Source of the DNA: a virus
Taxonomy: Duplodnaviria > Heunggongvirae > Uroviricota > Caudoviricetes
Direction: 5' to 3' (one strand)
Length of the DNA: 9,244 bases
IMG/VR virus record: IMGVR_UViG_2778261537_000007
Below are positions 7,896 through 9,244 of this stretch, in pieces (position 1 is the stretch's first letter; each line of letters begins with the position of its first letter). A program made the translations under genes and the position numbers. Under the pieces are notes generated by a model. The model worked only from the letters and a program-made list of their open reading frames with translations, made no database searches and was not told the DNA's origin.

Positions 7896-8015
7896 ACAAC
7901 ATTTCGAGAACAGTTTTCATTAGCGGTCAGCAGGCGCTAGATACATCGAATTGATGTGCCGCGCGATAAATGTACCTATTCTATCAAGATAAATTACACC
8001 GACGCGGCATTAGAA

Positions 8016-8588
8016 TTACAGCTCAGATTGAGTTTGGCGCTTCTCTACAGGATGATAACGATAAATCGTCGATACACCGATATCGTAAATAATTGCCAAC
8101 TGTTTCCTGCTGTAGCCATTTTCGATCAACCTCGCTATTTGCTCATGTTGTTCTTTTGTCAACTTCGGGCGACGTCCGCCAATGCGTCCCTGTTCGCGTG
8201 CAGCTGCCAGTCCGGCCAGTGTTCTCTCAACAATTAATTCACGTTCCATTTCTGCTAAAGCACCCATGACATGAAAAAAGAAACGCCCCATGGGTGTTGA
8301 TGTGTCAATACTGTCTGTCAGACTACGGAAATTAACACCTTTTTCCCGCAACTCCTCTATAAGCGTGATAAGGTGTTTCATACTTCTGCCAAGCCTATCC
8401 AGCTTCCAGACAACCAGCGTATCTCCTTCTGATAACGTTCTGAGCAGCTTTTTCAAGCCTGGTCTGGCTGACTTTGTTCCGCTTATTTTATCTTCAAAAA
8501 TCAGTTCACATCCTGCGCAGTTCAGTGCATTTCTTTGTAAATCTGTGTTTTGGTCATTTGTTGACACACGAATGTAGCCAATTTGCAT
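8016..8588 (-). CDS. serine DNA invertase (Hin/Gin/Cin/Pin/Min family resolvase-invertase)
   Basis: N-terminus MQIGYIRVSTNDQNTDLQ with the catalytic-Ser context, plus VVWKLDRLGRS, FRSLTDSIDTSTPMGRFFFHVMGALAEMERE, GRIGGRRPK and a C-terminal HTH-like region. ORF track starts at TTG 8597; I prefer ATG 8588-8586 (AGG 9 nt upstream), giving 190 aa. Stop TAA 8018-8016. Confidence 0.93.
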   Translation of the reverse strand: MQIGYIRVSTNDQNTDLQRNALNCAGCELIFEDKISGTKSARPGLKKLLRTLSEGDTLVVWKLDRLGRSMKHLITLIEELREKGVNFRSLTDSIDTSTPMGRFFFHVMGALAEMERELIVERTLAGLAAAREQGRIGGRRPKLTKEQHEQIARLIENGYSRKQLAIIYDIGVSTIYRYHPVEKRQTQSEL

Positions 8589-8610
8589 GAAAAACAACCT
8601 CTTTGTTTAG

Positions 8611-8640
8611 TTAAAAATACATCGTTGGTATAGGTAGGGA
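8611..8640. repeat. degenerate tandem copy of the crossover-like site, between the invertase start and site A
   Basis: At a fixed 30-bp offset, 8611-8640 matches 8641-8670 at 20 of 30 positions, including the CGTTGGT core (8623-8629 versus 8653-8659). Confidence 0.5.
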
Positions 8641-8642
8641 TT

Positions 8643-8668
8643 AAGACTAAAACGTTGGTTTAGGGGAA
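8643..8668 (+). other. putative invertase crossover site A at the 5' boundary of tail-fibre segment 1
   Basis: AAGACTAAAACG-TT-GGTTTAGGGGAA, an imperfect palindrome (CTAAA/TTTAG arms). The right half resembles the GGTTT-type half-sites I recall for hix/gix. Contains the in-frame TAA (8648-8650) immediately before the segment's first codon. Confidence 0.55.
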
Positions 8669-9163
8669 GGCTCGGCGCTGCCCGTTGGTGTACCTATTCC
8701 ATGGCCCTCAGCCACACCGCCAACGGGGTGGCTGAAATGCAATGGTGCAGCATTTTCTTCTGAAAAGTACCCAAATCTGGCAAAGGTTTACCCAACGTTA
8801 AAATTACCTGATTTACGCGGTGAATTTATCCGTGGCTGGGATGATGGGCGCGGGGTGGATGCTGGCCGCGCTTTGCTTAATTGGCAGCCACACACAATTT
8901 TGGACCATGCACACTATATGGAATTATGGACAGGGGACGGACTCGCCGCAGGAAGTGCACGGGAAGGCGTAAATCCAGGAATACTAGCTACATACGGTGA
9001 CGGGGGAATAGTTAAAACGGACGAACCCGGTCATAAGGTGCCTTCCTCACTACGAGCTATTAGCTCTCGTAGTGTTAAACGTTATGGTGAAATTAGTGGA
9101 AATGTAGGTACAGAAACTCGCCCTCGCAACGTTGCATTTAATTACATCGTAAGGGCGGCATAA
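8651..9163 (+). CDS. tail-fibre C-terminal (receptor-binding type) variable segment 1; promoterless, start-codon-less cassette
   Basis: Open frame from the TAA at 8648-8650 to TAA 9161-9163 (170 codons). Translation contains …YPNLAKVYPTLKLPDLRGEFIRGWDDGRGVDAGRALLNWQ…, the motif I recognise from invertible tail-fibre C-terminal domains. The ORF track's 8855 GTG start is inside this domain. Confidence 0.8.
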   Translation, partial: NVGLGEGSALPVGVPIPWPSATPPTGWLKCNGAAFSSEKYPNLAKVYPTLKLPDLRGEFIRGWDDGRGVDAGRALLNWQPHTILDHAHYMELWTGDGLAAGSAREGVNPGILATYGDGGIVKTDEPGHKVPSSLRAISSRSVKRYGEISGNVGTETRPRNVAFNYIVRAA

Positions 9164-9182
9164 AAACGTTGGATTTGGAGAA
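9157..9182 (+). other. putative invertase crossover site B at the segment 1 / segment 2 boundary
   Basis: GGCATAAAAACG-TT-GGATTTGGAGAA matches site A at 18 of 26 positions with an identical 10-bp core AAAACGTTGG. It holds the stop codon of segment 1 and opens segment 2 in the same codon register. Confidence 0.55.
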
Positions 9183-9244
9183 CGGTTACTGGAGGCTGAT
9201 GGGTACTTTGAATTACCGGGAGGATTGCTGCTGCAATGGGGGCA
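9165..9244 (+). CDS. start of a second tail-fibre C-terminal segment (partial, runs off the window)
   Basis: From 9165 the frame reads NVGFGERLLEADGYFELPGGLLLQWG with no stop to the window edge. It begins with the same N-V-G-x-G-E junction as segment 1. Confidence 0.5.

What the first reader, a model, noticed from the sequence alone, without database searches (positions are those of the whole stretch)
8588..9244. Multi-cassette tail-fibre DNA-inversion array next to a serine invertase
An intact Hin/Gin/Cin-family invertase gene starts at 8588. Within 60 bp begins an array in which two directly repeated ~26-bp sites (8643-8668 and 9157-9182; identical core AAAACGTTGG; 18/26 overall) each form the 5' edge of a start-codon-less tail-fibre C-terminal segment, in an identical codon register (stop-N-V-G-L/F-G-E). 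The left arm of each site supplies the stop of the preceding segment. This layout is not the simple two-site Mu G / P1 C arrangement, where the alternative ends face each other around assembly genes. It matches what a multiple-inversion system needs: several silent 3' cassettes, all inverted relative to a constant 5' tail-fibre gene part that should lie on the minus strand beyond the right edge. The functional outcome would be combinatorial host-range switching.
Basis: partly seen in the sequence, partly recalled or inferred. Interest (0 to 1): 0.75.

Follow-up and report, generated by a model that had tools for sequence, protein, structure and literature searches.

The report
Min-type tail-fibre shufflon, P1-like plasmid
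This is the left edge of the already-known "Min" multiple-inversion system of P1-like phage-plasmids, in which a serine invertase shuffles silent tail-fibre tip cassettes onto one constant fibre gene to change host range; the only unusual point is that the second cassette here is a type otherwise seen only in chromosomal P2-like prophages.

Summary
A complete 190-aa serine invertase lies on the minus strand (8588→8016). Two direct 26-bp crossover sites (8643-8668 and 9157-9182, 18/26 identical) each open a start-less tail-fibre tip cassette in the same register around a central TT. The core AAAACGTTGG occurs twice against 0.01 expected.

The invertase is 190/190 identical to that of pMCR_SCKP-LL83, whose array is published as 99% identical to p15B min. 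Near-identical plasmids show what lies beyond the window: 5 to at least 9 sites, plus-oriented on the invertase side and minus-oriented on the fibre-gene side, one tail-fibre assembly gene in the centre, and the constant S gene part on the minus strand.

Two same-hospital 95,815-bp plasmids with this exact invertase differ at 2,339 columns. After two in-silico inversions at site centres they differ at 4 of 20,001.

The unusual point is cassette 2 (9171-9244). It is a gp53-like tip, 100% identical to a silent cassette of chromosomal P2-like prophages. It is found on no plasmid and is joined to the array exactly at the site centre. Interest is low overall.

The parts
8016..8588 (-). min-type serine DNA invertase gene (190 aa), transcribed away from the array
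   Evidence: Pfam Resolvase plus HTH_7. Full-length match to Gin 3UJ3/4M6F, E about 1e-92, with Ser9 present. It is 190/190 identical to the invertase of pMCR_SCKP-LL83 and of L001/L004-L007, 1 aa from pJIE250-3, and 74% identical to P1 Cin.
8499..8570 (-). Predicted recombinational enhancer (Fis-dependent in Cin/Gin/Hin), at nt 19-90 of the invertase gene
   Evidence: 58/72 (81%) identical to the enhancer annotated in P1 cin, at the same position in the gene. Assigned by homology only; Fis binding was not tested.
8643..8668 (+). Crossover site 1, invertase-proximal outer site (12-2-12, centre TT at 8655-8656)
   Evidence: The left arm AAGACTAAAACG is invariant at this position in all 16 arrays examined, while the right arm and cassette vary. 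It fits the 26-bp invertase consensus tabulated in PMC4134206.
8654..9163 (+). Silent cassette 1 (type T0): 169 codons plus TAA, a start-less tail-fibre C-terminal tip
   Evidence: Collar domain PF07484. The same cassette type occurs invertase-proximal, inner-plus and inner-minus in other plasmids.
9157..9182 (+). Crossover site 2, inner site (centre TT at 9169-9170); its left arm contains the stop codon of cassette 1
   Evidence: The left arm GGCATAAAAACG is the standard inner-site arm of Min arrays. The right arm GGATTTGGAGAA is that of the silent site of P2-like prophages. All database matches to the window break at 9178-9182.
9168..9244 (+). Silent cassette 2: start of a gp53-like (PF21882) receptor-binding tip, cut by the window end
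   Evidence: Window 9164-9244 is 81/81 identical to P2-like prophages in 29 E. coli chromosomes and to 0 plasmids. It is 98.8% identical to IMG/VR contig L003. No homologue was found on any Enterobacterales plasmid among 72,556 PLSDB records.
7708..7884 (+). Decayed 5' remnant of a P1-type cin gene, marking the left boundary of the module swap
   Evidence: The 94% alignment of P1 to the window ends at 7884. The translation has two in-frame stops, one replacing the catalytic Ser codon. The P1 record notes the same remnant in p15B.

Best explanation
The window holds the invertase end of a Min-type multiple DNA-inversion system on a P1-like (Punavirus) phage-plasmid.

Shown here:
- The invertase is a Hin/Gin/Cin/Pin/Min-family serine recombinase.
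- Each 26-bp site is two 12-bp half-sites around a TT.
- In the complete arrays of relatives, all sites on the invertase side point one way and all sites on the fibre-gene side point the other way.
- Exchange occurs at the TT. The left arm stays in place and the right arm moves with its cassette.
- The TT sits at codon positions 2-3 in the constant S gene part (CTT) and in every silent cassette (GTT), so any cassette brought next to the constant part is fused in frame. Its stop codon lies in the left arm of the next site.

Inferred from the family:
- Min dimers at two inverted sites synapse with a Fis-bound enhancer, located in the 5' part of the min gene about 85-155 bp from site 1, on supercoiled DNA. 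They cleave at the TT, rotate 180 degrees and religate.
- The topological requirement suppresses deletion between direct sites, so the array is stable.
- Repeated nested inversions permute the order and orientation of cassettes. Each lysogen lineage then makes virions with one of 5 to about 10 alternative fibre tips, which is bet-hedging on host range.

In this window cassette 1 is a standard member of the pool. Cassette 2 is a gp53-like tip that most likely entered the array by site-specific exchange with a compatible site of a P2-like prophage.
For: Backbone: DdrB, DarA, Hdf, LydB and LydA domains, 94% identity to P1 over window 5559-7884, and 218 matching plasmids, mostly about 95 kb and non-mobilizable.

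Invertase identity: together with the published equivalences to p15B Min (PMC5786510, PMC6906374).

Architecture: site maps of 16 arrays show 5 to at least 9 sites. Plus-oriented sites always lie on the invertase side and minus-oriented sites on the Sc side. The invertase-proximal and Sc-proximal left arms never change.

Shuffling: the same cassette types occupy different positions and orientations in different plasmids. At least seven different types (T1, T3, T4, T5, T12, T14, T16) are found fused to Sc.

Inversion isomers:
- L005 becomes collinear with L004 in one 3.6-kb HSP after a single in-silico inversion between site centres.
- L024 and L025 (same hospital, both 95,815 bp, invertase WP_001165547.1 as in the window) go from 2,339 differing columns to 4 of 20,001 after two inversions at site centres. 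The 4 remaining differences lie outside the array.
- The exchange interval there is bounded to 7 bp (TTGGTTT) by polymorphisms in the arms.

Expression: there is no promoter excess inside the array.
Against: Nothing in the window itself shows inversion. Only two direct sites are present, and the constant part, the inverted sites and the rest of the array are inferred from relatives.

The second cassette is of a type never seen in a Min array, so this particular array may be rearranged, a cointegrate, or (less likely) misassembled.

The enhancer is assigned only by 81% similarity to P1's. The effect on host range was not tested, and the receptor specificities of the cassettes are unknown.

Only one tail-fibre assembly gene serves the whole array, and in some isomers it is antisense to the fibre operon (L004, L025). 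How the other tips fold is unexplained.
Confidence: 0.9

Rival explanations
1. It is a simple two-site Cin/Gin-like switch. The extra direct sites and cassettes would be inactive relics of duplication, so only the outermost pair recombines.
For: Classical P1 and a related P1-like lineage (L021, whose invertase differs by only 4 aa) do use two sites. Some cassettes in some records are frameshifted.
Against: Inner sites are used as breakpoints. L024 to L025 needs exchange at the inner sites 11301 and 9389, and L005 to L004 needs exchange at the inner site 9748. Inner cassettes of one plasmid are the expressed, Sc-fused cassette of another. Most of the frameshifts sit in homopolymer runs of noisy assemblies (L001, L002).
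Confidence: 0.03
2. The rearrangements are made by RecA-dependent homologous recombination between the conserved ~220-bp 5' parts of oppositely oriented cassettes, not by the invertase at the 26-bp sites.
For: Cassettes share 82-93% identity over about 220 bp after the site, which is enough for occasional homologous exchange. Cassette number varies between plasmids, which invertase action alone does not explain.
Against: In L024/L025 the exchange interval is bounded to 7 bp. The base immediately 5' of TT (C or G) stays in place, and the polymorphic base 6 nt after TT (A or G) moves with the cassette. Inversion exactly at TT leaves zero mismatches inside the array. An intact invertase with an enhancer homologue sits next to every array.
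Confidence: 0.04
3. The junction of cassette 1 to cassette 2 (site 2) is an assembly or library chimera between a Min plasmid and a P2-like prophage in the same genome. The real array would continue with an ordinary collar cassette.
For: The junction is unique. It is absent from PLSDB, 5,426 complete E. coli genomes, GTDB representatives, IMG/VR and JGI metagenomes. The window ends 77 nt after the point where it becomes identical to the L003-type context and 81 nt after that point for the L008-type context, which resembles a de Bruijn graph branch. Short-read contigs often break inside these arrays.
Against: A normal Min inner site and the P2 silent site share only about 9 nt (AAACGTTGG) in a row, far below any assembly k-mer. 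A graph-based join would therefore need reads that really span the junction. The join is exactly at the chemically expected crossover point and keeps the reading register, which a random chimera would not do. The left end of the window is not at a repeat, so the window may simply be an excerpt.
Confidence: 0.12

Closest known systems
Min multiple DNA-inversion system ('Min shufflon') of plasmid p15B of E. coli 15T- (Sandmeier, Iida, Arber and co-workers 1990-1992; described in PMC6109161)
   Same: - P1-related plasmid-prophage backbone.
- A serine invertase, identical to that of pMCR_SCKP-LL83 (whose array is published as 99% identical to p15B min) and 1 aa from the pJIE250-3 invertase (published as 98.5% identical to Min).
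- The invertase is oriented with its 5' end toward the array, next to a cin remnant.
- Several 26-bp sites in both orientations.
- One constant S part with alternative 3' cassettes.
   Different: The arrays seen here have 5 to at least 9 sites. From memory, p15B was described with six; I could not check this because the primary papers are not held. The window's second cassette is a gp53-like tip that does not belong to the collar-type pool. The p15B sequence itself (X62121) was not available for direct alignment.
Cin / C-segment of phage P1 (and Gin / G-segment of Mu)
   Same: The same recombinase family (74% identity to Cin), the same 12-2-12 site with a TT centre (cixL CAATCCTAAACC-TT-GGTTTAAGAGAA), an enhancer in the 5' part of the gene (81% identical), the same flanking genes (lydC, lydA, lydB, darA on one side; S, R, 16, bplA on the other), and the same purpose.
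   Different: P1 has two sites, two long Sv-U sets facing each other, and cin transcribed toward the segment with cixL overlapping its 3' end. Here there are many short cassettes (143-169 aa), each with its own site, a single assembly gene, and the invertase pointing away from the array.
Invertible tail-fibre segments of P2-like / e14-like chromosomal prophages (for example EC958 Phi2, PMC4134206; L008 and L003 here)
   Same: Near-identical site design and reading register: Hc ends ...LLAY-L-G-L-G-E at TTCTCGCATACC-TT-GGTTTGGGAGAA, and EC958 Phi2 has GAGAGATAAACG-TT-GGTTTGGGGGAA. This is the source of the window's cassette 2 (81/81 nt). In-trans action on prophages with truncated invertases has been proposed (PMC4134206).
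   Different: These are two-site systems on integrated prophages of an unrelated phage family. In L008 the invertase is reduced to a 108-bp remnant.
R64-type shufflon (Rci) and the bifidophage Rin shufflon
   Same: The logic is the same: many silent 3' cassettes, each behind a short site, shuffled onto one constant 5' gene part, with inversion favoured over deletion.
   Different: Those use tyrosine recombinases and asymmetric sites (PMC11850598, PMC6109161). Here the enzyme is a serine recombinase, so this is analogy, not membership.

Membership tests
Hin/Gin/Cin/Pin/Min (Din) serine DNA invertases | Small (~190 aa) serine recombinase with an N-terminal catalytic domain carrying the nucleophilic Ser9/10 and a C-terminal helix-turn-helix | tested here: met
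   PF00239 (E 2e-51) plus PF02796 (E 3e-15). Residues 1-185 align to Gin 3UJ3/4M6F at E about 1e-92, and the motif YIRVST contains Ser9.
Hin/Gin/Cin/Pin/Min (Din) serine DNA invertases | 26-bp crossover sites made of two imperfect inverted 12-bp half-sites around a 2-bp core where strands are exchanged | tested here: met
   The sites have the form ...AAAACG-TT-GGTTTxGGGGAA and fit the consensus in PMC4134206 Table 3 and P1 cixL/cixR. Exchange maps to a 7-bp interval containing the TT.
Hin/Gin/Cin/Pin/Min (Din) serine DNA invertases | Fis-dependent recombinational enhancer in cis, inside the 5' part of the invertase gene | tested here: inconclusive
   Window 8499-8570 is 58/72 identical to the annotated P1 enhancer at the same gene position. 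Fis binding and function cannot be tested with these tools.
Hin/Gin/Cin/Pin/Min (Din) serine DNA invertases | Recombination restricted to inversely oriented sites on one molecule (inversion, not deletion) | tested here: met
   This rests on comparison only. All reconstructed events are inversions between opposite sites, and the rule of plus sites on the invertase side and minus sites on the Sc side holds in all complete arrays examined. Cassette number does vary, so rare deletions or gains occur.
p15B Min multiple-inversion system | The recombinase is Min | tested here: met
   The link is indirect. The invertase is identical to that of pMCR_SCKP-LL83 and 1 aa from that of pJIE250-3, which the literature equates with p15B min and Min at 99% nt and 98.5% aa (PMC5786510, PMC6906374). 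X62121 itself was not available.
p15B Min multiple-inversion system | More than two crossover sites, in both orientations, defining overlapping invertible segments | tested here: inconclusive
   The window holds only two sites, both direct, because the array is cut at 9244. In relatives with the identical invertase and flank the feature is met, with 5 to at least 9 sites.
p15B Min multiple-inversion system | One constant 5' tail-fibre gene part to which alternative 3' cassettes are fused in frame | tested here: inconclusive
   The constant part is not in the window. In relatives, Sc ends ...VLDY-LGLGE at a site with the same centre and register, and at least seven cassette types are found fused to it. 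Both window cassettes have the matching register.
p15B Min multiple-inversion system | P1-related plasmid-prophage context (lyd/dar genes on one side, S-R-baseplate genes on the other) | tested here: met
   The left side is in the window. The right side is seen in relatives.
P1 Cin / C-segment two-site switch | Exactly two sites flanking two opposed Sv-U gene sets, with cin reading into cixL | tested here: not met
   A second direct site lies 514 bp after the first, the cassettes are short, and the invertase is in the opposite orientation.
R64-type shufflon | Tyrosine recombinase Rci acting on asymmetric sfx sites | tested here: not met
   The recombinase is a serine resolvase/invertase.

The most novel reading that the evidence does not exclude
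Site 2 may be the footprint of an invertase-catalysed exchange between two different phage systems. In this reading the Min enzyme of the plasmid recombined an inner site of its own array with the compatible silent site of a chromosomal P2-like prophage whose own invertase is defunct. That would either fuse the replicons or, after a second exchange, capture a foreign receptor-binding tip (gp53-like) into the Min array. If so, multi-cassette arrays grow by site-specific capture of cassettes from unrelated prophages in the same cell, and serine invertases move host-range determinants between phage families.
Probability: 0.3. Interest if true: 0.55.

Novelty: already known. Interest (0 to 1): 0.22.

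Why it matters
The system explains how a very common family of E. coli and Klebsiella phage-plasmids, many of which carry resistance genes such as mcr-1 and ESBL genes, can present up to about ten alternative receptor-binding tips from one fibre gene. That is relevant to their host range and to the spread of the genes they carry.

It also has practical consequences:
- The silent cassettes are routinely mis-annotated as independent "phage tail protein" genes.
- The array breaks short-read assemblies.
- Near-identical outbreak plasmids can differ by thousands of alignment columns purely through inversion.

None of this is new in principle. The one lead worth following is the foreign gp53-like cassette joined exactly at a crossover site. 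It could give a concrete example of cassette exchange between P2-like and P1-like phages.

Tried and rejected
1. Extending the window: exact-pattern scans for the cassette-1/cassette-2 junction found nothing in GTDB genome contigs, JGI metagenome contigs or IMG/VR. BLAST found no contiguous match in PLSDB or in 5,426 complete E. coli genomes.

2. A "reciprocal junction" test: I joined the P2 left flank to a Min collar cassette and searched for it. It matched 169 records, but inspection showed these are another P1-like lineage (L021) with a two-site system that shares this invertase-proximal flank. The test does not discriminate between hypotheses and I rejected it as evidence.

4. The primary p15B papers and the Johnson review are not held. 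The published number of p15B sites is therefore quoted from memory only.

5. I considered the window's right end as a de Bruijn graph branch (77 or 81 nt into the shared sequence). The left end is ordinary single-copy backbone, so the window may be an excerpt, and I treat this as weak evidence.

6. L001 and L002 were dropped as reference arrays because of many homopolymer frameshifts.

7. I judged structure prediction, RNA-family searches and the representative-protein search unnecessary for a system identified at 100% protein identity.
Full report
**1. What is in the window**

The window is a piece of a P1-like (Punavirus) phage-plasmid. On the minus strand it carries:
- hxr-like (303-611)
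- ddrB (601-3588, ddrB-ParB domain)
- ddrA (3601-3966)
- darA (3963-5882, DarA_N and DarA_C)
- hdf (5884-6495)
- lydB (6473-6916)
- lydA holin (6913-7242)
- a lydC-like holin (7317-7580)

P1 itself aligns at 94% to window 5559-7884. About 218 PLSDB plasmids match the right-hand 1.3 kb. Most are ~95-kb non-mobilizable E. coli, Klebsiella or Salmonella plasmids, and one is a Punavirus phage genome. The exact DdrB protein occurs in 721 blocks of the assembly collection, so the lineage is very common.

**2. Checking the observation**

The invertase gene is complete: 8588→8016 on the minus strand, 190 aa, Resolvase plus HTH_7. It aligns full length to Mu Gin structures at E about 1e-92 and has Ser9.

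Fifty-five bp from its ATG lies site 1 (8643-8668, AAGACTAAAACG-TT-GGTTTAGGGGAA). Site 2 (9157-9182, GGCATAAAAACG-TT-GGATTTGGAGAA) lies 514 bp further on, in the same orientation, with 18/26 positions identical. The 10-mer AAAACGTTGG occurs only at these two places, against 0.01 expected.

Cassette 1 (8654-9160, 169 codons, TAA at 9161-9163) has a Phage Tail Collar domain and no start codon at its 5' edge. Cassette 2 reads VGFGERLLEADGYFELPGGLLLQWG to the window end. Relative to the central TT, both read N-V-G-(L/F)-G-E in the same register.

At site 2 the TAA that ends cassette 1 is in a different frame from cassette 2, because there are five A's rather than four.

**3. What lies beyond the window**

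Relatives with 0-2 mismatches over window 7900-8668 and an identical invertase protein show the whole structure:
- A run of plus-strand cassettes, each preceded by a site GGCATAAAAACG-TT-GGTTT(G/A)GGGGAA.
- One tail-fibre assembly gene.
- A run of minus-strand cassettes with their sites.
- The constant part of the S tail-fibre gene on the minus strand, followed by R, gene 16, bplA and so on.

Sc ends ...VLDY-L-G-L-G-E at a site TTCTT(G/A)ATTACC-TT-GGTTT.... The TT occupies codon positions 2-3 both in Sc (CTT) and in the silent cassettes (GTT). Exchange at TT therefore fuses any cassette in frame, and the stop of each cassette lies in the left arm of the next site.

In 16 arrays I found 5 to at least 9 sites. 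Plus sites always lie on the invertase side and minus sites on the Sc side. The left arm next to the invertase (AAGACTAAAACG) and the one at the end of Sc never change.

**4. Evidence that the sites work**

- A common pool of cassette types appears in permuted order and orientation. It includes T0 (the window's cassette 1), T1, T2, T5, T7, T12 and T16. T0 is invertase-proximal in the window, L005 and L006, inner-plus in L004 and L007, and inner-minus in L011-L013 and pMCR_SCKP-LL83. At least seven types are found fused to Sc in one plasmid or another.
- L005 and L004 differ by a 2,064-bp inverted block whose ends are two site centres. After in-silico inversion they align as one 3.6-kb HSP.
- The strongest case comes from two K. 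pneumoniae plasmids from one hospital, NZ_LR890206.1 and NZ_LR890724.1. Both are 95,815 bp and carry the same invertase protein as the window. They differ at 2,339 alignment columns. After two nested in-silico inversions at site centres (7807×11301, then 7807×9389) they differ at 4 of 20,001 positions, all in the Sc repeats outside the array.
- Polymorphisms in the arms bound the exchange to the 7 bp TTGGTTT. The base just 5' of TT stays and the variable base 6 nt after TT moves with the cassette. That excludes homologous recombination and matches the chemistry of serine invertases. The expressed fibre changes from Sc-T1 to Sc-T4.

**5. Mechanism**

Shown: the enzyme family, the site structure, the orientation rule, exchange at the TT, and in-frame fusion.

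Inferred from established knowledge of Hin/Gin/Cin:
- Dimers bound at two inverted sites assemble with a Fis-bound enhancer on supercoiled DNA.
- They cleave with a 2-nt stagger at the central dinucleotide, rotate subunits by 180 degrees and religate.
- The required topology disfavours deletion between direct sites.

The stretch homologous to the P1 enhancer lies at nt 19-90 of the gene (window 8570→8499) and is 81% identical. The silent cassettes have no start codon at their 5' edge, and there is no promoter excess in the region (1 match against 2.9 expected).

**6. Comparison with what is known**

This is the Min multiple-inversion system of plasmid p15B. [quoted passage not shown] It differs by one residue from the invertase of pJIE250-3, reported as 98.5% identical to Min (PMC6906374). 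The "Min shufflon" is described as a serine-recombinase system that makes multiple inversions giving variable tail fibres (PMC6109161).

The window also shows the p15B-type module boundary. A decayed 5' remnant of a P1-type cin lies at 7708-7884; it has two in-frame stops, one replacing the catalytic Ser codon. It is followed by min in the opposite orientation. The P1 GenBank record notes the same similarity pattern for p15B.

Compared with P1 Cin (74% identical), the system differs in having many short cassettes with individual sites, a single assembly gene and an invertase that points away from the array. It resembles R64 and Rin shufflons in logic only, because those use tyrosine recombinases. 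I could not read the primary p15B papers. That p15B has six sites is from memory.

**7. The one unusual feature**

All database matches to the window stop at 9178-9182. From 9164 onward the window is 81/81 identical to a silent gp53-like cassette (PF21882) of P2-like prophages in 29 E. coli chromosomes and 0 plasmids. It is 98.8% identical to an IMG/VR prophage contig. No Enterobacterales plasmid in PLSDB encodes a homologue, and no complete genome has a collar-cassette end joined to this cassette.

The P2-like system uses the same site design and register: Hc ends ...LLAY-LGLGE at TTCTCGCATACC-TT-GGTTTGGGAGAA, and the silent site is TTTTCTTAAACG-TT-GGATTTGGAGAA. In L008 its invertase is a 108-bp remnant.

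Site 2 of the window is therefore a Min inner left arm joined at the TT to a P2-type right arm. A normal Min site and the P2 site share only about 9 nt in a row, so a k-mer assembly chimera is unlikely. The join is where a site-specific exchange would put it.

The possible explanations are:
- an array that captured a foreign tip;
- a plasmid-chromosome cointegrate made by Min acting in trans (in-trans action is proposed in PMC4134206);
- less likely, an artefact.

My attempt to find the reciprocal junction was uninformative, because that flank is also native to another P1-like lineage.

**8. Verdict**

Interest is low. The gp53-like cassette at site 2 is a modest lead on how such arrays acquire cassettes.

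Noticed in passing
window 9164-9244 (site 2 right half and cassette 2); L008 6965-7291; L003 8147-8452: The second cassette is a gp53-like tip, 81/81 identical to silent cassettes of chromosomal P2-like prophages. It is present on no plasmid in PLSDB or in complete E. coli genomes. It is joined to a standard Min inner left arm exactly at the central TT.
   Followed up: partly
window 7708-7884 (+): This is a decayed remnant of the first ~59 codons of a P1-type cin gene, with its promoter region upstream. It has two in-frame stops, one replacing the catalytic serine codon. It marks where the Min module replaced cin and the C segment, and it carries a second, probably inert, enhancer-like copy.
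   Followed up: partly
L024 (NZ_LR890206.1) and L025 (NZ_LR890724.1), locus 7807-12254: Two same-hospital K. pneumoniae plasmids of identical length differ only by two nested inversions in the array (2,339 differing columns reduce to 4). Inversion isomers like these would inflate SNP or alignment distances in outbreak comparisons.
   Followed up: yes
L004 10650-11261, L005 ~10710-11319, L025 8315-8926, and all other complete arrays: Each array has a single tail-fibre assembly gene. It always follows cassette type T3 and converges on type T4, so the centre looks like an ancestral two-site segment. In several isomers this gene is antisense to the fibre operon, so how the other tips fold without a co-transcribed chaperone is unexplained.
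   Followed up: no
L004-L007, L024, L025 annotation tables: The start-less silent cassettes are annotated by PGAP as independent 'phage tail protein' genes with arbitrary TTG or GTG starts. This is an annotation artefact of invertible fibre loci, as PMC4134206 also notes.
   Followed up: no
L001 10744-15263; L002 10743-13732: Many cassettes in these two records are frameshifted at the G-run of the right half-site (GGGG versus GGGGG) and elsewhere, and the invertase of L002 is split into 'Hin1/Hin2'. This is probably long-read homopolymer error rather than biology.
   Followed up: partly
L004 11775-13457, L005 11319-13598, L021 8489-11710, L024 5391-8240: The constant part of the S fibre gene varies greatly in length (expressed proteins of 560 to about 1,070 aa) through different numbers of an internal repeat of roughly 100 aa (Phage_fiber_2 units). 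The only 4 differences between L024 and L025 lie in these repeats.
   Followed up: no
L021 (NZ_CP019075.1) 6405-8486: Another P1-like plasmid lineage has an invertase only 4 aa different from Min but a classical two-site segment with two assembly genes. Its invertase-proximal flank is the same as that of the P2-like prophage L008. This shows that invertase and site modules are shared between P1-like plasmids and P2-like prophages.
   Followed up: partly
L007 2454-3662, L015 6559-7767, L021 745-1951: An IS200/IS605-family TnpB element is inserted between ddrA and ddrB in several relatives. It is absent from the window.
   Followed up: no
L015-L018 contig ends; gp53-like cluster members P0022, P0023, P0029, P0032: Short-read contigs frequently end inside the array or begin right at a crossover site, including 1-2 kb contigs that start at ...FGERLL. 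This is consistent with these segments existing in more than one context in the sequenced cultures.
   Followed up: no
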